19,093 bases of DNA from a virus. The notes under the pieces are model-generated. The model was not told where the DNA came from, ran no database searches, and saw only the letters and a list, made by a program, of their open reading frames with translations. The stretch lies in the UHGV virus genome UHGV-0806601; one strand, written 5' to 3'. This document shows positions 1,285-18,668 of this stretch, piece after piece. A program made the position numbers and the translations under genes. Within the stretch, counting starts at the first letter, position 1. Each line of letters starts with the position of its first letter.

Positions 1285-2133
1285 ATGACGCCATATGTGT
1301 ACAGAATCAAGTCCAAGCAGGGGCATTTCTATTATGGGTGTCGATACGCCCAAGGGTGCCACCCATCCGATTTCTGGACAACCTACTTCACGTCTTCCAC
1401 GCCCGTCAAATTGCTTATCGAGGAGCACGGGGAAGACTTCTTTGAGCCAAAGATCATAAGGGTATGCCAAACTCAAGAGGAAGCCCTGAGGATAGAGAGA
1501 ACGCTTATCTCACGGTCACACAAATTGCTCGGTTGCCTCAATCAGTTTCTGTGTCGTAAAGATGGAACTCCAGTACATTTTGGAACCTTTGGTCCGCCAA
1601 GTGAAGAAACTAGGGAGAAGATAAGACAAGCTCTTCTTGGGCATAAAAACTCGGAAGAGGCAAAGGAACTCATGAGACAGAAGAAGCTGGGCACAAAGTG
1701 GGGTCAATCGCATAGAGAAGGGATCGAAAGGTACAAAGAAACCCCCAAGTATGCCGAAGTGAGGGAGAAGATCAAAATAGCCACCCAAACCCGAAAGAAA
1801 ACTCCCGAAGAATTAGCAGCAATATCTGCCAAGCTGACTGGTATAAAACGCAGTGATGAAACTCGGAGGCGTATAGCCGATGGTGTTCGCTCCGCACAAC
1901 GAGCGATACCTCTTTACATGAGGCCGCGCGCATTGTCTCTAAAAGACAAATGGGCCATGGCTGGTATGTGTTATGCATTCTGGTTGGAAAAGAAAGGTTC
2001 ATACTACACGTTTTGCACAAACCACAATAATGGCGAAAACATATCCGTATTCCGCTCTATGTACAAAATGTTTGAAGATGGATGGGTTCCTTCAATGGAC
2101 AAAGATTTTGAATCTTATATCAAGTCTGATTGA
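1285..2133 (+). mobile_element. free-standing GIY-YIG homing endonuclease (Seg-like) with C-terminal NUMOD3-type repeats
   Basis: N-terminal YVYRIKSKQGHFYYG is a GIY-(10)-YIG variant. The C-terminal half has repeated S-EE-T-R-x-K-I units (SEETREKIRQALLG, SEEAKELMRQKKLG, TPEELAAISAKLTG, SDETRRRIADGV). An AGGAGA ribosome-binding site sits 7 nt upstream of the ATG. Confidence 0.7.
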
Positions 2134-4174: not shown

Positions 4175-4178
4175 TTCT

Positions 4179-8045: not shown

Positions 8046-9554
8046 ATGGCAGACATTCAGATTGTTAAGGTTAACGAAGTCCGCATGCGTTGCATCGCAG
8101 ATCTTTCTATCAGGGAAGAACTTAATGACTACTTCAAATTCGAAGACCCGAACTTCGTTCCCAACCCCTTTTCTAAATGGGACGGGGTTGTCCGCCTATT
8201 TACCAAGTCATCTGGTCTAATCGATATCGGTCTGCTGTTTGAGGTATTTAAGTTCTGTAAGAACAACGGATACACCATTGAACTGGATCCGGCACTGAAG
8301 TACATTCAGGACATCCCAGATGAAGAAATCCGTGACTTCATCGACAGTCTGCATCCAAAGATCCGCACCGAAAATCACGAATATATCGATGCCGAGACTC
8401 GTGACTACCAGTACGACACCATCGCCAAGGCTATGCGTCAAACCAGATGCGTCTGTGAACTGGCTACGAGTGCCGGTAAGTCCTTTATTCTGTATGTCAT
8501 GGCGCGGTACTACAGGCGGCGCAGAGAAGCTCTCGAAAGTCCTCTGAAGACGCTTATCGTGGTGCCGTCAATCCACCTAGTCACTCAGCTGTACGACAAC
8601 TTCGAAGAGTATGCGCATGGCAGTGATTGGAAGCCCGTTGTTAACACCCAGCTGATTTTTGAGGGCGCGACAAAGGATATCAGCAAACCAATCGTCATCA
8701 GTACATGGCAAGGCATTCAAGACCAGCCGAAGGAATGGTTCCACCAGTTCGGTGATATCGTGGTGGATGAAGTGCACACCTCCAAGTCTGAGAAACTGTC
8801 TTACATCCTAAACAACTGCATCTATGCCGACCAGCGCCTGGGGGTTACAGGTACGCTGGCGAATACCAAAGTTGCCGGGCTTCAGGTGGTGGCTCACTTC
8901 GGGGCGTACCATAAGATCATCACGGCTCGCGATCTTATCAATCTCGGGTACGCCACTGACATCAAAGTGAAGATGATTCAGCTGAAGCACACTCCGGCGG
9001 ATGCTGTTGGTCTGGACGGGGATTATTCCAAGGAAATAGAATACCTTATCACACACCAGTCCCGCAACGAACTGATCGCCAAGATGGCACTGAATCTGAA
9101 AGGAAACGTGGCCATCATGTTCGAACGTATTGATGGTCACATGATGGTCGTGTATGATATGCTGAGCGCAGTCAAGCCCAACGTGTTTGTCATCAACGGG
9201 GAAGTGAAGATCGAAGACCGCCGCCGCATACAGAAAGCGATGGAGGATGGAGAGGACATCACCCTGTTGGCATCATACGGGACAATGCAGCAGGGAGTGT
9301 CGATCAAGAAGCTACACCACCTTGTACTGGCACACCCGAGCAAGTCATATATCCGCGTCATACAGACGTTGGGTCGTCTGATGCGTCAGCACTCCTCTAA
9401 GGACGTCGCGTGGATATGGGACTTAGTGGATGATGCATCGTACAACGCCAGCACGAACCACGCTCTTAGGCACTCTCACGAGCGTTACAAGTTTTACCTG
9501 GCAGAGCGCCACCCTGTGGAATTCATGAAGGTGGCGCTGGGTGATCACGATTAA
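8046..9554 (+). CDS. uvsW: UvsW-like SF2 DNA helicase
   Basis: Walker A TSAGKSF, DEVH box VVDEVHTS, and long collinear similarity to remembered T4 UvsW (e.g. KNLHHVVLAHG.KS.I..LQT.GR vs here KKLHHLVLAHPSKSYIRVIQTLGR). Start placed at the ATG at 8046 with GGAGA upstream. Confidence 0.85.
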   Translation: MADIQIVKVNEVRMRCIADLSIREELNDYFKFEDPNFVPNPFSKWDGVVRLFTKSSGLIDIGLLFEVFKFCKNNGYTIELDPALKYIQDIPDEEIRDFIDSLHPKIRTENHEYIDAETRDYQYDTIAKAMRQTRCVCELATSAGKSFILYVMARYYRRRREALESPLKTLIVVPSIHLVTQLYDNFEEYAHGSDWKPVVNTQLIFEGATKDISKPIVISTWQGIQDQPKEWFHQFGDIVVDEVHTSKSEKLSYILNNCIYADQRLGVTGTLANTKVAGLQVVAHFGAYHKIITARDLINLGYATDIKVKMIQLKHTPADAVGLDGDYSKEIEYLITHQSRNELIAKMALNLKGNVAIMFERIDGHMMVVYDMLSAVKPNVFVINGEVKIEDRRRIQKAMEDGEDITLLASYGTMQQGVSIKKLHHLVLAHPSKSYIRVIQTLGRLMRQHSSKDVAWIWDLVDDASYNASTNHALRHSHERYKFYLAERHPVEFMKVALGDHD

Positions 9555-9922
9555 TCTTGATTCACATAGGCGGGGGTGGCCTCGCCTTCATCAGTTACTA
9601 CACCGAACAATTTATCCAGAGAAGCCAGACATTGTGCGTTCAGGTGTTCACTGATCGTATCCTTCAGCATTTCTTCGCTGCCCAATTTGAATGGCAGAAC
9701 TTTCGCTTCGACGCCATTTTCAAACGTCACCACACCGACATACAGACCAACTTTCAGACCTGTCATCAACCCCATAGGGACAAATCGCGGCTCCGATGGT
9801 AAGTTCTTGTCTGACGCCAGTTGTGTCAGATAAACTGGGGTGCCTGTGGTAAATTGATCTGTGGTGAGGTTGGCGTCTGGCTTACTACACCCGACTGCGT
9901 ATAATCCTACGAACTGTTTCAT
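9551..9922 (-). CDS. hypothetical protein, possibly a lipoprotein (123 aa)
   Basis: Minus-strand ORF with a GAGAG ribosome-binding site. The N-terminus MKQFVGLYAVGC has a lipobox-like AVGC, but the signal peptide is unusually short. Its stop overlaps the uvsW stop by 2 nt (convergent). Confidence 0.4.
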   Translation of the reverse strand: MKQFVGLYAVGCSKPDANLTTDQFTTGTPVYLTQLASDKNLPSEPRFVPMGLMTGLKVGLYVGVVTFENGVEAKVLPFKLGSEEMLKDTISEHLNAQCLASLDKLFGVVTDEGEATPAYVNQD

Positions 9923-10104
9923 ATATTACTCTCGTGTGTTGGTTAACATGACATACATATTATTTCGCGTGCATGTTTAGACCAAATAAATTATTTTTGC
10001 TGTTGAATAAAAACTGCTTTCTTGTTGAACAATGGCGTGGTATTATACGAGTTGTGAGCGTTAGCGAACAACGAGTATTTGTTTTATGAGCGAAGCGAAT
10101 AGGA

Positions 10105-10151
10105 TTAATAAAGATTATTATCTTTAATAAAGGTTATTATCTTTAATAAAG
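10105..10151. repeat. tandem direct repeats with 19-nt period
   Basis: TTAATAAAG occurs at 10105, 10124 and 10143. Two near-identical units of about 19 nt, (A/G)TTATTATCTTTAATAAAG, sit at 10114-10132 and 10133-10151. Confidence 0.6.
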
Positions 10152-10154
10152 TCC

Positions 10155-10175
10155 ATAAATGCCGAAGGCATTTAT
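10155..10175. promoter_or_regulatory. perfect 9-bp inverted repeat (ATAAATGCC gaa GGCATTTAT)
   Basis: Hairpin or palindromic protein-binding site immediately after the tandem repeats, in the AT-rich region between the divergent 9922 gene and gp45. Confidence 0.45.
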
Positions 10176-10283
10176 TAATAACGCGTAGCGCAATTTGCCA
10201 CTTGTTCTATAAGCAAAACACAGCGATACTAGATTGCGTCAAACATGACTTGAACCCCCACTATATTTTGAGGATACATACAA

Positions 10284-10953
10284 ATGCAAGAGATCACTCT
10301 CTCCGAACGTACACTTCAGTTGCTGGCCAACTTTGAGACCATCAACCCATCTATCGTTCTGACACCGGGCAAGATGCTGCGCAGTATTAATGATTCTTCT
10401 ACTGTGATCGCCGTGGCGCAGATCGAAGAAGACTTCCCGTTTGAGTTCCCGATTCTGGACCTGACCAAACTTCTGGCCATCCAGCGCCTACCTTCCTTCA
10501 AAGGTGCCAAAGCCGAATTCCATCAGGACTACATCCTGTTGAAAGGCGAAAGTTCTCAGCTGCAATTCTGGCGTTCTGCTAAAGAACTCACGGTTGTCCC
10601 GGCTGATACTATTTGAACTGCCGTCTGTCGACTTTGAAGCGATCATCACTCCAGAGAAGATGAAAGAACTGACCCGCGCCTGCTCTACCCTAGGACATAA
10701 GACTGTGCGTCTGGTTGCTCAGGGTGGCAAAACACGCCTGGTTGCAACCACCACTACCCTGGACAACTCCAACAACTACACTGTTGAGCTGGGCGAAACC
10801 GCGCTGCCGGACTTCGTAATGCCACTGGATGTTGCCAACCTGAAAATGATCGAAGGCAACTACACTCTGCGTGCATGTGCTGATCTACAAATGGTGAACT
10901 TCCAATCATCCGACGCGACGATCAATTACTTCGTCGGCGCACAGATTGAGTAA
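10284..10953 (+). CDS. 45: sliding clamp (gp45 homolog), reading frame interrupted by a one-base frameshift near 10611-10616
   Basis: Two adjacent ORFs (10284-10616 and 10594-10953) together align collinearly with remembered T4 gp45 (FWRSAKELTVVPADTI / ELPSVDFEAIIT vs T4 FWPAADPSTVVAPNKPIPFPVASAVTEI). The second has no ATG (the track uses TTG). The shift maps to the T-run ACTATTTGAACTG. Confidence 0.7.
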
Positions 10954-11034: not shown

Positions 11035-12024
11035 ATGTCTAATATCACTATCGTTTCCGACCAGTACGCATGGGAAAACAAGTACCGCCCTGACAACCTG
11101 GACGAGATTATCATCCCTCAAGACGTCCGCGCTAAAATCCATGGCTACATCACCAGCGGCAACGGCAACATCCCGTCTATGCTGTTCTACTCTCCTCAGC
11201 CTGGTACTGGCAAGACTACCTCCGCCCTGGCCGTGTGTAATGAAATCGGTTGTAAGCAACCACTGATGATCAACGCATCCCTGGACAACAGCATCGACGT
11301 TATCCGTGACCGCGTGATTCAGTACTCTACTGGTGTGAGTGTATTCGGTGGCCGCAAAGTCGTTATCCTCGACGAAGTAGAGCGTCTGTCTATGGCGGCA
11401 CAGGAGTCGCTGAAGGGTATTGTGGAGAAGGTCTCCAAGAACTGTTCATTCATCTTGACCACCAACGCCAAGCAACGTGTGAACGAACCTCTGCGCTCTC
11501 GTTGCCGTGAAATCGACTTTATCTGGAATGAGACCGAGGCTGATGAGGTCAAACTTCAGTTCATGCGCCGCTGTGCTGAAATCCTTCGCTGCGAAGGTGT
11601 TGAGTATGACCCTCCTGTGTTGGCTGCTATTGTCAAGCGCCATTTCCCTGATAACCGCCGCATCATGGGTGTTCTACAGGATAACGTCACCACTTACGGC
11701 AAGATCGACGAACGTGCACTGGCTGTGTTAAAATCGGCCGATATGGGCATGTTGGTGAATATGTTGAAGGATAATGACTGGGCTGGGATGAAGCAGTGGG
11801 TGACCGACAACCAGAACTATATCACTGAAGACTTCTATTCCCGCTTCTTCCAGTTCTGTGTACCACAGGATAAAGAGAAGCAAATGTTGGTTCAGAATGA
11901 GTCTATCCCTGATCTGGTATGCGTATGTGGTCAGTCTCAGATTGAACACCGTCAAGTCGGCGATGTCTGGCTGCATGCTGTGTTTTTCCTGACCAATGTC
12001 ATGCTCAACATCAAGTGGAAGTGA
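11035..12024 (+). CDS. 44: clamp loader large subunit (gp44 homolog, AAA+ ATPase)
   Basis: KYRP..LDE...P motif and Walker A PQPGTGKTT, matching remembered T4 gp44 (EQKYRPSTIDECILP...SPSPGTGKTT), plus DEVER and SRC motifs. Start placed at the ATG at 11035 with GAGG upstream. Confidence 0.85.
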   Translation: MSNITIVSDQYAWENKYRPDNLDEIIIPQDVRAKIHGYITSGNGNIPSMLFYSPQPGTGKTTSALAVCNEIGCKQPLMINASLDNSIDVIRDRVIQYSTGVSVFGGRKVVILDEVERLSMAAQESLKGIVEKVSKNCSFILTTNAKQRVNEPLRSRCREIDFIWNETEADEVKLQFMRRCAEILRCEGVEYDPPVLAAIVKRHFPDNRRIMGVLQDNVTTYGKIDERALAVLKSADMGMLVNMLKDNDWAGMKQWVTDNQNYITEDFYSRFFQFCVPQDKEKQMLVQNESIPDLVCVCGQSQIEHRQVGDVWLHAVFFLTNVMLNIKWK

Positions 12025-12028
12025 TATT

Positions 12029-12451
12029 ATGGCCGCTCTTGGATTGTTCGATTACCTGGCTGCTCTGAACAGCAGCAAAGAAAACCTTTTGCGGTCTGAT
12101 GACCCAGAAGTGTTGAAAGGATTCGACCCGTTTATGACGCGGCGTGGTTTAGCTCAGAGCAAAGACACTCTAGTGGCTGCGCAACAGATGAATAAGCTAC
12201 ATGCTATCACTCCATGGATGCAATGGTCATATGCCTTTTACACCATTCCGGCTCGGAAACGCTACGACAAATGGTCTAAGAAAGGTCCGATTGATCCTGA
12301 CGTGAAGTTACTCTCCGAGTACTTCTACATCAGCATGGAGAAGGCATCGGAGTACGTCCGTTTCTTGCCGAAGGAAGTCCTGGCCGAGATACGCGAGAAG
12401 ATGAGACGCACTGAGCTGAACGCCAAAGCGAAACCGCGCAAGGCTAAATAG
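12029..12451 (+). CDS. 62: clamp loader small subunit (gp62 homolog)
   Basis: Position immediately after gp44 as in T4. PARKRYDKWSKK resembles remembered T4 gp62 PRGKRYGKWAK. The start is ambiguous between 11996 and 12029. Confidence 0.6.
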   Translation: MAALGLFDYLAALNSSKENLLRSDDPEVLKGFDPFMTRRGLAQSKDTLVAAQQMNKLHAITPWMQWSYAFYTIPARKRYDKWSKKGPIDPDVKLLSEYFYISMEKASEYVRFLPKEVLAEIREKMRRTELNAKAKPRKAK

Positions 12452-12480: not shown

Positions 12481-12945
12481 ATGGCGCGTAATACGCTAGA
12501 CATATTGAATATTTCAGCAGTCAACGATGAGGCCAGCATCGTTGATTGTATGGTTGAAGTTCAATTGAACCAAGATCGGCCAGGTATATTCCTGGGGATC
12601 AAGGAAACACTGAGTCGAATTGGGGTAAACACGCGCCAAGAGCCGAATACTCTGTATCAGACTTGCCATATTCTTCATAAGTGTGGTAAGTATTATATCG
12701 TCCACTTTAAGCATCTATTTATGCTGGACGGGCATTACAACGGATTTAACCGCGAAGATGTCCTGAGGATGAACCGAATCATCAAGCTGCTGGAGCAGTG
12801 GAACATGGTGAAGGTCATTCATCCTGAGCAGGTCACCGAAGCAGCCGATATGTCTCGCATTAAAGTGGTTAAACACGATCAGGTTCCTGAATGGAAGCTG
12901 GTTCCAAAATACATCATCCGGCCTACGAAGGCAAAAAGCGAATAA
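12481..12945 (+). CDS. regA: RegA translational repressor homolog
   Basis: KETLSRIGVNT...LYQTCHILHKCGKYYIVHFK and EWKLVPKYII match remembered T4 RegA (KETLTRMGIAN...LYQSCHILQKKGLYYIVHFK; EWKLVPKYTI). An alternative start at 12550 would match T4 length better. Confidence 0.75.
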   Translation: MARNTLDILNISAVNDEASIVDCMVEVQLNQDRPGIFLGIKETLSRIGVNTRQEPNTLYQTCHILHKCGKYYIVHFKHLFMLDGHYNGFNREDVLRMNRIIKLLEQWNMVKVIHPEQVTEAADMSRIKVVKHDQVPEWKLVPKYIIRPTKAKSE

Positions 12946-13902: not shown

Positions 13903-15126
13903 ATGAAAGATAAAGCCCTAGACGTCCCGTACTGCGGTGTCCGTGAAGAAAAGATAAAGTCGGCCAAACCGGTTCTCAGTCCGACCCATACCCGCCTGTC
14001 TTACGAATGGATGAGCGAGCGCTATAAGATCCACGTCAAGAAGGATGTCCAGCGCCTTCCTGCTCCTTGGACTGATAATCCCATATTACGGCAGGTCAAG
14101 TTCTGTAATGTCCGGAGAGAGCACGACAGGCAGTCTCTCAACCTGATCAACAACATCGTCAACAACGATGCTCTGGGTATGGCCGACAAGATGTTCAACT
14201 GCGTGTTGTTCCGCATGTTCAACCTCTGGGATCCAATCCAGGCTATTGGCGGCGCGATGACGATCAAAGAATTCGCCAAGATCAACCTCGATACAACCCG
14301 CGAACGACTTCAGAAGTTCGAGGCCGACGGTGGTAAGGTATTCACCAATGCCTTCAACACGGGCGGCCTGAAGCAATGCCTGGCTTTCCCTGAGCTGGTT
14401 GTCAACCACAAAGAGCAGCGCTTCGGTGGGATGATGGTGAAAGTGTATCGCGTTGGCCAGGGTATTGTGGACGAGATGGACTACAAGGTCGCCAAGAAGC
14501 TGGTCGAAGAGAATCCTGGTGAATATACCATCGAGGGATGGGAACCGTACATGCCAATGCGTGTCATCCGCTCCCTGAAGGCATTCGTCAACAAGTATCC
14601 AAATTATTTCCATGACCTGCTGCGCCTTGGTACTCCTTTGGAAGTATACCAGCGCATGTACGACGACATCGAAGGGCTTGGTCCATTCTTGGCCTATCAG
14701 ATATGGGTTGACTTCACGTACATGCCGGGTTATCCGTTTAGTGAGAACCACTTCACGGTTGCTGGACCAGGCTGTCGCGCAGGTATTGATCTGCTGTTCC
14801 TGAACAAAGACGGTATGACTCACGAAGAATGCATCTTCTGGCTACGGGATAATCAGGACGCAGTGTACTCCCAATATGGGTATGTTCGCGAGCAATTCTG
14901 GTCGGCCGAAGAGCCTGTAGATCAGTGCATGAACGTTATGCAGCTGGAGAACATGTTCTGTGAACTGAGCAAGTACACCCGCTGTGTTGAGGCTGTACAG
15001 CAAGGTAAAAAACCGCGCGGGAAGGTCAGCTATGACGGCGGTGGGGAATACAAAAAGCGCTGTGATGAAGTCGTGCTCAAACGCGGTTCCGTCAATTTGC
15101 TGGACCGTTTGAAGAAACCTGAATAA
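13903..15126 (+). CDS. hypothetical protein (407 aa) with a helix-hairpin-helix-like motif
   Basis: YDDIEGLGPFLAYQIW fits the HhH signature h-x-x-h-x-G-h-G-x-x-x-A. Strong AGAGGA ribosome-binding site. No T4 homolog recognised. Confidence 0.5.
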   Translation: MKDKALDVPYCGVREEKIKSAKPVLSPTHTRLSYEWMSERYKIHVKKDVQRLPAPWTDNPILRQVKFCNVRREHDRQSLNLINNIVNNDALGMADKMFNCVLFRMFNLWDPIQAIGGAMTIKEFAKINLDTTRERLQKFEADGGKVFTNAFNTGGLKQCLAFPELVVNHKEQRFGGMMVKVYRVGQGIVDEMDYKVAKKLVEENPGEYTIEGWEPYMPMRVIRSLKAFVNKYPNYFHDLLRLGTPLEVYQRMYDDIEGLGPFLAYQIWVDFTYMPGYPFSENHFTVAGPGCRAGIDLLFLNKDGMTHEECIFWLRDNQDAVYSQYGYVREQFWSAEEPVDQCMNVMQLENMFCELSKYTRCVEAVQQGKKPRGKVSYDGGGEYKKRCDEVVLKRGSVNLLDRLKKPE

Positions 15127-17304: not shown

Positions 17305-17677
17305 ATGTTTGATAAAGCAACCCGTCTGAAACTGCGCTTCGAGTCTAACAAAGGTCTGCTGTCTGTTGAGCAGGTTTGGGACCTGAGCCTGACCGCCCTG
17401 AACGAAATGGCGAAAGGTCTGAGCCGTCAGGTGAAAAGCAGCAGAAACCGATGAAGAAGATTTCATTGGCACCAAAAGCAACGTTGACTCCGAACTGCAG
17501 CTGCGCTTCGACGTTGTCAAGCACATCATCGGCGTTAAGCTGAAAGAACGTGACGACAGCAGAGACGCGGCAGAGCGTAAGGCGAACAACCAGATTATCC
17601 TGGAGCTGATCCAGCGTAAGAAACAGCAAGAGCTGGAAAGCAAATCTGTTGAAGAACTGGAAGCACTCCTGAAATAA
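17305..17677 (+). CDS. hypothetical protein (about 123 aa if joined), interrupted by a one-base frameshift at the A-run 17434-17437
   Basis: Frame 1 runs ATG 17305 to a stop at 17452-17454 (49 codons). The next frame is open from 17435 to the stop at 17675-17677 with no start codon of its own and protein-like sequence (..FIGTKSNVDSELQLRFDVVKHIIGVKLKERDD..). GAGGA ribosome-binding site. Translated by hand. Confidence 0.45.
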
Positions 17678-17701: not shown

Positions 17702-17727
17702 CCCCGCCATGTGCGGGGTTTTCTTTT
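17702..17727 (+). terminator. rho-independent terminator
   Basis: CCCCGC (17702-17707), loop, GCGGGG (17713-17718), then TTTTCTTTT; nearly the same module as at 1211-1238. Confidence 0.6.
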
Positions 17728-17738
17728 GGACAAAGAAT

Positions 17739-18149
17739 ATGAAACCTGTTATATGTGATTACTGTGGCCTCCCAGCCGAATTCGTCGGTGGTGATGTTCT
17801 CTACCCTCATCGCCCTGACCTCCGCAATCTGAAGTTCTGGGTGTGCACTCCATGTGATGCCCGTGTCGGTTGCCATGCCCATGGCGACGGCAGACAACCT
17901 CTGGGAAGGATGGCGAATGCCGCTCTCCGTGCTGCTAAGCAGGAAGCCCATAGATCGTTTGACCCATTGTGGAAAAGCGGAGAGAGGAGCAGGAGCGACG
18001 CTTACAGTTGGCTGGCGCATAAGCTGGGGATAAAGAAGCGTGAGTGTCATATTGGCTTGTTCGATATCGACATGTGCCGTAAAGTAGTTGTTGTCTGTCA
18101 ACAATACGAGGCACATATCAATGTCAAAGGAAATACAAGAAGCGTTTGA
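17739..18149 (+). CDS. zinc-ribbon protein of unknown function
   Basis: CxxC (C6, C9) and CxxC (C36, C39) pairs in the N-terminal 40 aa. The track start at 17709 lies inside the terminator loop, so the ATG at 17739 is preferred. Confidence 0.5.
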   Translation: MKPVICDYCGLPAEFVGGDVLYPHRPDLRNLKFWVCTPCDARVGCHAHGDGRQPLGRMANAALRAAKQEAHRSFDPLWKSGERSRSDAYSWLAHKLGIKKRECHIGLFDIDMCRKVVVVCQQYEAHINVKGNTRSV

Positions 18150-18366
18150 GAATCTAACTCAGGCGCTCACCAACTGCAACCGTCTCAACTATTGCAACGA
18201 CCCATTGCAAAAGCTGAAGTCCCTGGTAGAATCAGAACTGGCTAAACTGGCCGAATACAACGCCATCCAAGAAGACGTGGCGTTCATGTCGGACACGGTC
18301 GTAGACACCCTTCCGCGCGAAGTGTTACAATGTCTTGGACCGCATCGCAAAGGTGGGTTTCCGTGA
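18121..18366 (+). CDS. hypothetical protein (81 aa)
   Basis: ATG at 18121 with GAGG upstream; overlaps the previous gene's 3' end by 29 nt. Confidence 0.35.
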   Translation: MSKEIQEAFENLTQALTNCNRLNYCNDPLQKLKSLVESELAKLAEYNAIQEDVAFMSDTVVDTLPREVLQCLGPHRKGGFP

Positions 18367-18434
18367 ACCACAAGACGCCAAACCCACCCCCGAAATTCTT
18401 ACATCCATCGTTGACTCGTTTAAGTGAGACCGCC

Positions 18435-18668
18435 ATGTCTAAAGAGATTATCTTTACCGGGGCGGCGCTTGACACCATGTATGCCCTGTACAATCGTGGT
18501 CCACTGAGCATTGGCGATATCCCGTCTAAGTCAGGTCTGGACTTCCTGTTGCGACATAAGCTGGTTGTGGCTGTGGTAGTCAGGGGTGAAACGCAATACG
18601 CCGGGTCGATGGCCATGGCTTCCCACTACAAACGTCAGACATGGAAGGGTGCTTCCTCCAAATCCTGA
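18435..18668 (+). CDS. hypothetical protein (77 aa)
   Basis: ATG at 18435; the upstream part of the track ORF has no ribosome-binding site and is Pro-rich and non-protein-like. Confidence 0.35.
   Translation: MSKEIIFTGAALDTMYALYNRGPLSIGDIPSKSGLDFLLRHKLVVAVVVRGETQYAGSMAMASHYKRQTWKGASSKS

What the first reader, a model, noticed from the sequence alone, without database searches (positions are those of the whole stretch)
10590..10625. Sliding-clamp gene split by a one-base frameshift in a T-run
The two ORF halves both align to gp45, and the junction falls at ACTATTTGAACTG. Removing one T gives a continuous ...ADTIELPSVDF... The clamp is essential for T4-type replication and late transcription, so a genuine pseudogene would be surprising. 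A homopolymer sequencing error is the most likely explanation, and a real biological frameshift is less likely.
Basis: seen in the sequence. Interest (0 to 1): 0.5.

Follow-up and report, generated by a model that had tools for sequence, protein, structure and literature searches.

The report
Clamp gene split by one-base artefact
The phage sliding-clamp gene here is broken by one extra T that no relative has; because two other conserved genes in the same window are broken in the same way, it is almost certainly a sequencing or assembly error and not biology.

Summary
The window comes from an Ackermannviridae (Aglimvirinae, Agtrevirus-like) phage about 97% identical to E. coli phages LHE287, YX22, AV101 and A221. 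Its gp45 clamp gene is split into ORF 10284-10616 (110 codons plus TGA) and a +1-frame continuation at 10615-10953. The cause is a TTT run at 10612-10614 where every relative examined has TT. Deleting one T gives a 222-aa protein that matches RB69/T4 gp45 end to end. That protein is 100% identical to the clamp of six relatives and two environmental contigs. All 5-25 nucleotide differences per comparison are synonymous, in both halves.

The same window carries two more private single-base insertions that split conserved genes (17434, AAA to AAAA; 18325, T to TT). A fourth lies in a spacer (17719, TTT to TTTT). Each insertion duplicates the neighbouring base. The window's private substitutions look normally selected (78 synonymous, 22 non-synonymous).

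The site lacks the defining features of prfB-type +1 recoding: no SD-like element, AUU instead of CUU, fourth base A, no conservation and no RNA structure.

Side note: the 360-nt spacer upstream of gp45 is conserved and structured across the whole family.

The parts
10284..10616 (+). N-terminal half of the gp45 sliding-clamp gene (110 codons), ending at a TGA created by the frameshift
   Evidence: 100% aa identity to LHE287 gp45 residues 1-110; PHROG 223 positions 1-105, E = 1e-31.
10612..10614 (+). TTT run containing the one extra T; relatives have TT (ACTATTGAA)
   Evidence: a single-column gap at this run in all six closely aligned relatives; 59 of 59 sampled records that span the site are one base shorter.
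10615..10953 (+). C-terminal half of gp45 in the +1 frame (112 codons plus TAA)
   Evidence: 100% aa identity to LHE287 gp45 residues 111-222; PHROG 223 positions 109-217; Pfam gp45-slide_C, 20.9 bits.
11035..12451 (+). Intact gp44 and gp62 clamp-loader genes immediately downstream (synteny context)
   Evidence: 99.7% and 100% aa identity, each in a single frame; annotations.
17434..17437 (+). Second private one-base insertion (AAA to AAAA). It splits a conserved 123-aa hypothetical gene (17305-17677).
   Evidence: relatives read GTG AAA GCA. Downstream, 80 aa are 100% identical to LHE287 in the +1 frame.
18324..18325 (+). Third private one-base insertion (T to TT). It splits a conserved 101-aa hypothetical gene (18121-18427).
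   Evidence: relatives read GTG TAC AAT. Downstream, 33 aa are 97% identical in the +1 frame.
17719..17722 (+). Fourth private one-base insertion (TTT to TTTT), in an intergenic spacer

Best explanation
The gp45 gene is an ordinary, intact single-polypeptide sliding clamp. It appears split only because the deposited or assembled sequence has one spurious extra T in a short T-run (TT read as TTT at 10612-10614). The true phage most likely encodes the 222-aa clamp ...VVPADTIELPSVDF..., identical to that of its closest relatives. This clamp would work with the adjacent gp44/gp62 loader as in T4-type replication. The same base-duplication error occurs at least three more times in this window (17434, 17719, 18325). 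That marks it as a property of the sequence record (over-called short homopolymers or poor consensus polishing), not of the gene.

Shown: the private insertion, the perfect conservation of both halves, the multiple similar insertions, and the absence of recoding signals.
Inferred: that the cause is technical rather than a real recent mutation.
For: 1. The insertion is private. There is a single gap at this run against AV101, A221, vB_CECAV_050, fGh-Ecl02, LHE287 and YX22. 59 of 59 evenly sampled GenBank relatives that span the site (out of 272) are one base shorter. The TTT variant, with synonymous degeneracy allowed, has 0 hits in IMG/VR, JGI metagenomes and GTDB genomes. Uninterrupted versions occur in 4 IMG/VR contigs and 1 metagenome contig.
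2. After removal of one T the protein is 100% identical to six relatives. All 5-25 nucleotide differences per comparison are synonymous, in both halves. It is also 100% identical to the proteins of L012 and L021.
3. Of the LHE287 proteins that find a counterpart in the window, three are split, each by a private +1-base insertion that duplicates the adjacent base. All the others are intact.
4. Private short indels of the relatives are all intergenic, although the region is 91% coding. The window alone has coding ones.
5. The window's private substitutions are normal, at 78 synonymous to 22 non-synonymous. The relatives range from 44:12 to 46:28. So the lineage is under selection and only the indels are aberrant.
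Against: No reads or quality values are available, so the error is inferred and not seen. The runs involved are very short (1-3 bases). That is atypical for Illumina assemblies and not the classic long-homopolymer deletion pattern of nanopore data. The sequencing platform and the source record are unknown: there is no match of 99.3% or better in the phage collection and none among E. coli genomes.
Confidence: 0.8

Rival explanations
1. The extra T is a real, very recent frameshift mutation, and the clamp gene is inactivated in the sequenced molecule. This could be a defective variant in a mixed population, a lab-stock mutant kept alive by co-infecting wild type, or a chimeric metagenome consensus.
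For: Slippage at short runs is a real mutational mechanism. The sequence as given does carry the stop. Some deposited relatives also show oddly short annotated genes (the A221 regA CDS is 177 nt against 465 nt elsewhere), so damaged genes do appear in this group's records.
Against: There is no decay of any kind in either half: 0 non-synonymous changes against six relatives. It would require three independent inactivating frameshifts in conserved genes within 8 kb of one lineage whose substitutions show normal purifying selection. By established knowledge of T4, gene 45 is essential for replication and late transcription, so a clonal viable phage could not carry it. This last point is an inference for Ackermannviridae.
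Confidence: 0.13
2. Programmed +1 ribosomal frameshifting at a 'shifty stop', AUU UGA A. The peptidyl-tRNA-Ile would slip from AUU to UUU when the UGA is slowly decoded, and GAA would be read next. The product would be the normal ...ADTIELPS... clamp, in the manner of prfB (RF2).
For: The zero-frame stop immediately follows a U-ending codon (XXU UGA), the geometry of the prfB site. A +1 shift exactly there restores the conserved protein with no residue lost or added.
Against: The defining prfB elements are listed in bioRxiv 10.64898/2026.01.08.698412, and they are absent.
- There is no SD-like AGGGGG upstream; the sequence is GUCCCGGCUGAUACU.
- The spacer codon is ACU, not UAU or UCU.
- The P-site codon is AUU, not CUU. 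On my own reasoning about anticodon pairing, tRNA-Ile would have a first-position mismatch on UUU.
- The fourth base is A, not C.

There is also no stable local RNA structure (z = +1.7 and +0.6). The arrangement is conserved in no relative, whereas real recoding sites are conserved. The other two split genes have different, non-slippery contexts, e.g. GUG UUA C. The clamp is needed in large amounts, which does not fit a low-efficiency shift.
Confidence: 0.03
3. A genuinely split, two-piece clamp. The N and C domains would be made as separate polypeptides, with the second started by re-initiation near the stop (TTG at 10594 or another codon), and would assemble into the ring.
For: The break falls at the boundary between the two halves of the PHROG 223 profile (positions 105 and 109). 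It aligns with T4 gp45 residues about 107-108, which by my own knowledge of the T4 structure lie near the inter-domain connector. A TTG in the right frame lies 20 nt upstream of the stop.
Against: No Shine-Dalgarno sequence precedes TTG 10594. No relative or environmental contig has a split gene. The two 110-aa 'products' found in public assemblies are only contigs that end at ...ATTG with the normal sequence. This reading does not explain the other two frameshifts.
Confidence: 0.02

Closest known systems
T4/RB69 gp45 sliding clamp (PDB 1czd, 1b77; Pfam PF09116; PHROG 223) and its Ackermannviridae orthologues (e.g. ViI Vi01_135c; LHE287 XAN60283.1)
   Same: The repaired protein shows full-length homology. 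It has the same length as the family's 222-aa orthologues, with 100% aa identity to several of them. The gene order UvsW, small ORF, gp45, gp44, gp62, regA is the same.
   Different: As written, the window's gene has one extra T and reads as two ORFs.
prfB (RF2) programmed +1 frameshift at CUU UGA C
   Same: An in-frame UGA directly follows a codon ending in U, and a +1 shift restores the conserved protein.
   Different: There is no SD-like stimulator, the P-site codon is AUU, the spacer codon and fourth base differ, and the arrangement is not conserved in any orthologue.
Homopolymer-length indel errors in assembled phage genomes (pyrosequencing, Ion Torrent or unpolished long-read consensus)
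   Same: These are single-base length changes of a run. Several occur per record, they break otherwise perfectly conserved genes, and the substitutions look normal.
   Different: The runs here are unusually short (1-3 bases) and all four events are insertions of T/A. The platform is unknown.

Membership tests
T4-type gp45 sliding clamp | Sequence homology over both domains to solved gp45 clamps or to the family profile | tested here: met
   residues 6-216 align with residues 3-217 of RB69 gp45 (E = 1.5e-13), and T4 gp45 matches at E = 1.2e-11. PHROG 223 positions 1-217 of 222, E = 1e-64.
T4-type gp45 sliding clamp | Pfam gp45-slide_C above the gathering score | tested here: not met
   20.9 and 18.6 bits against a cut-off of 25. 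The Pfam model is built on closer T4 relatives; the PHROG and PDB matches are decisive.
T4-type gp45 sliding clamp | A single polypeptide of about 220-230 aa | tested here: inconclusive
   Not met by the sequence as written (110 aa plus a +1-frame remainder). Met after removal of one T (222 aa).
T4-type gp45 sliding clamp | Adjacent to gp44/gp62 clamp-loader genes | tested here: met
   gp44 at 11035-12021 and gp62 at 12029-12448, both intact. Annotations.
prfB-type programmed +1 frameshift | Shifty-stop CUU UGA whose P-site tRNA can re-pair in the +1 frame | tested here: not met
   The site is AUU UGA.
prfB-type programmed +1 frameshift | SD-like element (AGGGGG) one spacer codon upstream | tested here: not met
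   The upstream sequence is GTTGTCCCGGCTGATACT, with no GGAG or GGGG.
prfB-type programmed +1 frameshift | C immediately after UGA (a weak stop context) | tested here: not met
   The context is UGA A.
prfB-type programmed +1 frameshift | The frameshift arrangement is conserved among orthologues | tested here: not met
   None of the aligned or sampled relatives has it. The TTT variant has 0 hits in three collections.
Transcriptional slippage recoding | A long A or T run (about 7 or more) at the junction | tested here: not met
   The run is 3 T. The threshold is from my own knowledge.
Sequencing/assembly homopolymer indel artefact | A one-base run-length change private to the record, inside a gene that is otherwise under purifying selection | tested here: met
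Sequencing/assembly homopolymer indel artefact | Several events of the same kind in the same record | tested here: met
   10612, 17434, 17719 and 18325, each a duplication of the adjacent base.
Sequencing/assembly homopolymer indel artefact | Read-level evidence (pile-up disagrees with the consensus, or quality is low) | not testable with these tools
   No reads are available and the source record was not identified.

The most novel reading that the evidence does not exclude
The extra T is genuine in a viable phage. A functional clamp would still be made, either by inefficient SD-independent +1 frameshifting at AUU UGA A or as a two-piece clamp split at the inter-domain connector. The two other split genes would then be decoded in a similar way, which would imply unusually frequent +1 recoding in this phage.
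Probability: 0.04. Interest if true: 0.6.

Novelty: not a real feature. Interest (0 to 1): 0.06.

Why it matters
The value is mainly annotation hygiene. This gp45 should not be called a pseudogene or a recoding case. The record should be corrected, or flagged as low quality at three or more sites (10612, 17434, 18325), before it is used for comparative or recoding surveys. If the insertion were real, an essential replication clamp expressed through an unconventional +1 shift or as two pieces would be notable, but nothing here supports that.

Tried and rejected
1. Looked for the same frameshift elsewhere. An exact 34-mer and a degenerate 24-mer carrying TTT were run against IMG/VR, JGI metagenomes and GTDB genomes, with 0 hits. 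E. coli genomes gave no match.
2. Looked up the exact 110-aa product. Two short contigs turned up, but both simply end at ...ATTG with the wild-type sequence. They are a by-product of searching by exact length and are not evidence.
3. Ran a wild-type pattern control. Of 12 hits, only 5 are real gp45 loci; the other 7 metagenome hits are chance matches to a degenerate 23-mer.
4. Looked for recoding signals. There is no SD-like element. The local RNA folds are weaker than shuffled sequence. A small 'terminator-like' hairpin at 10591-10605 is within the chance expectation.
5. Rfam finds nothing in the whole window.
6. No paper in the searched library holds all three terms 'Ackermannviridae', 'sliding clamp' and 'frameshift'.
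7. Considered whether thymidine hypermodification contributed. This is a trait of ViI-type Ackermannviridae (bioRxiv 10.64898/2026.05.19.726188, citing Lee et al. 2018). All four insertions are T, or A which is T on the other strand, so the modification might bias T-linked errors. This is plausible but untestable here, and it stays speculation.

Full report
**What is there.** The window comes from an Ackermannviridae phage of the Aglimvirinae/Agtrevirus group. Over about 90% of its length it is 96-97.5% identical to Escherichia phages LHE287, YX22, AV101 and A221. Gene order around the finding is UvsW helicase (8046-9554), a 123-aa ORF on the minus strand (9551-9922), a 361-nt spacer, gp45 (10284-10953), gp44 (11035-12024), gp62 (12029-12451) and regA (12481-12945).

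The clamp gene reads as ORF 10284-10616 (110 codons, then TGA). Its remainder lies in the +1 frame, from GAA at 10615 to TAA at 10951-10953. The junction string ACTATTTGAACTG is at 10608-10620 and the T-run is at 10612-10614.

**Checking the observation.**
- Both halves belong to the clamp family. PHROG 223 'DNA polymerase processivity factor' matches profile positions 1-105 (E = 1e-31) and 109-217 (E = 4e-26).
- The Pfam gp45-slide_C match to the C half is below the cut-off, at 20.9 against 25 bits.
- Deleting one T yields a 669-nt ORF and a 222-aa protein reading ...VVPADTIELPSVDFEAI....
- That protein aligns over residues 6-216 with RB69 gp45 (1b77, E = 1.5e-13) and with T4 gp45 (1czd, E = 1.2e-11).

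**Is the extra base shared with anything?** It is not.
- Direct alignments with AV101, A221, vB_CECAV_050 and fGh-Ecl02 place a single gap in the relative at this run (ACTA-TTGAA). Whole-window comparisons with LHE287, YX22, AV101 and A221 do the same.
- A sensitive search with 151 nt around the site found 272 GenBank phage records. In an even sample of 60, all 59 that span the site are exactly one base shorter than the window.
- A degenerate pattern for the TTT version, with synonymous variation allowed, has no match in IMG/VR, JGI metagenomes or GTDB genomes.
- The wild-type pattern finds five genuine gp45 loci with an uninterrupted gene. Two of them (L012, L021) encode a protein 100% identical to the repaired window protein. 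The other seven metagenome hits to that pattern are chance matches.
- An exact-sequence look-up of the 110-aa product found two short contigs. Both simply end at ...ATTG with the normal sequence.

**Selection on the two halves.** Against six relatives, the repaired gene differs at 5 to 25 nucleotides. Every difference is synonymous, in the N half and in the C half alike, and all six proteins are identical to the repaired one. The gene is therefore not a decaying pseudogene. Either the insertion is not real or it is extremely recent.

**The decisive context: more of the same in this window.**
- I ran tblastn of LHE287 proteins (and, for the left end, SW16-7 proteins) against the window. All the genes that match are intact except three.
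- The three are gp45, a conserved 123-aa hypothetical gene and a conserved 101-aa hypothetical gene.
- The 123-aa gene is split at 17434, where the window has GTGAAAAGC and the relatives have GTGAAAGC.
- The 101-aa gene is split at 18325, where the window has GTGTTACAA and the relatives have GTGTACAA.
- A five-way MAFFT alignment of 15 kb shows four private one-base insertions in the window: 10612 T, 17434 A, 17719 T (intergenic) and 18325 T. Each duplicates the neighbouring base.
- The private short indels of the relatives all fall in spacers, although 91% of the region is coding.
- The window's private substitutions look like those of any selected lineage, at 78 synonymous to 22 non-synonymous. 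The relatives range from 44:12 to 46:28.
- In summary, the substitutions are normal and there are three coding frameshifts of one mechanical type. That is the signature of run-length mis-calls in the record, not of evolution.

**Recoding considered.**
- The geometry XXU UGA resembles the prfB shifty stop, and a +1 shift there would give exactly the conserved protein.
- The defining prfB elements are an SD-like AGGGGG, a UAU/UCU spacer codon, CUU UGA and a following C (bioRxiv 10.64898/2026.01.08.698412). They are absent here: the sequence is GUC CCG GCU GAU ACU AUU UGA A.
- The local RNA is no more structured than shuffled sequence, with z = +1.7 downstream and +0.6 across the site.
- A weak hairpin flagged at 10591-10605 is within the chance expectation.
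- The arrangement is not conserved in any orthologue.
- The other two split genes have unrelated contexts. One of them, GUG UUA C, offers no re-pairing.
- A T3 run is too short for transcriptional slippage (my own knowledge).

**Split clamp considered.** The break coincides with the boundary between the two profile halves, and so with the inter-domain region of gp45. However, no ribosome-binding site precedes the in-frame TTG at 10594. No relative is split. The idea also does not account for the other frameshifts.

**Verdict.**
- A real but very recent inactivating mutation, for example a defective molecule in a mixed population, cannot be excluded without reads (about 0.13).
- Recoding or a two-piece clamp together rate about 0.05.
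- One speculative contributor is that ViI-type Ackermannviridae carry hypermodified thymidines (citing Lee et al. 2018). All four insertions are T, or A which is T on the other strand. This could not be tested.

**Seen in passing: a conserved spacer upstream of gp45.**
- The 361-nt spacer (9923-10283) is nearly invariant among the close relatives.
- It is recognisable in 273 Ackermannviridae records at 70-79% identity, even in Kuttervirus and Taipeivirus. That is as conserved as the clamp coding sequence, yet it is unannotated in almost all records.
- An alignment of eight phages from across the family (Agtrevirus, Limestonevirus, Kuttervirus, Taipeivirus) shows long invariant blocks and two hairpins that share the core xGAGC-loop-GCGAy, at 10044-10078 and 10086-10100.
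- Compensatory changes occur at flanking pairs, CG to UA and UA to CG. A third hairpin (10155-10175) is replaced by a different palindrome in Taipeivirus.
- The 10040-10190 stretch folds far better than shuffled sequence (z = -3.75, 0 of 200 shuffles). No Rfam family matches it.
- This may be a structured leader or small RNA, plus divergent promoters. It is more interesting than the frameshift itself, but I followed it only partly.

Noticed in passing
window 17305-17677 (site 17434-17437) and 18121-18427 (site 18324-18325): Two further conserved hypothetical genes (123 aa and 101 aa in relatives) are each split by a private one-base insertion that duplicates the adjacent base (AAA to AAAA; T to TT). 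A fourth such insertion lies in the spacer at 17719 (TTT to TTTT).
   Followed up: yes
window 9923-10283: The 361-nt spacer between the minus-strand 123-aa ORF and gp45 is nearly invariant in close relatives and recognisable in 273 Ackermannviridae records (70-79% identity in other genera). It is as conserved as coding DNA and almost never annotated. It holds invariant blocks, two hairpins with a shared GAGC-loop-GCGA core and compensatory changes (10044-10078, 10086-10100), and a third hairpin (10155-10175) that is replaced by another palindrome in Taipeivirus. The RNA fold of 10040-10190 has z = -3.75, and there is no Rfam match. It may be a structured leader or small RNA plus divergent promoters.
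   Followed up: partly
window 10105-10151: The 19-bp tandem repeat TTAATAAAGATTATTATCT is present in 2.5 copies here. Copy number varies among close relatives: one unit fewer in AV101 and SW16-7, one more in A221.
   Followed up: partly
window 1285-2133 (and up to about 2420): The gene after the major capsid protein is a variable cassette. The window has a 282-aa ORF 90% identical to that of Salmonella phage SW16-7. LHE287, YX22 and AV101 carry an unrelated 490-aa gene there, and A221 carries a 662-aa one.
   Followed up: partly
between window 10953 and 11035 (L006 11920-12576; L023 12287-12943): YX22 and SW16-7 carry an extra 657-nt ORF inserted between gp45 and gp44. It is absent from the window and from LHE287, AV101 and A221, and may be a mobile (homing-endonuclease-like) insertion. 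It was not examined.
   Followed up: no
L009 (1155 nt) and L010 (610 nt): Two unrelated public short contigs end exactly at the codon where the window is frameshifted (...ATTG), so they give 110-aa partial products identical to ORF1. They carry the normal sequence. The coincidence follows from looking up by exact product sequence.
   Followed up: yes
window 18668 and 4175: Two single-G deletions occur in the same context (TGAGTT to TGATT), each directly after a stop codon in a spacer. The one at 18668 is private to the window. The one at 4175 is shared with A221, so it is probably a real polymorphism.
   Followed up: partly
L008 (A221) 14163-14339: A221's regA is annotated as a 177-nt CDS against 465 nt in the other phages, and its small minus-strand ORF upstream of gp45 is also shortened. 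This suggests errors or mis-annotation in that record too.
   Followed up: no
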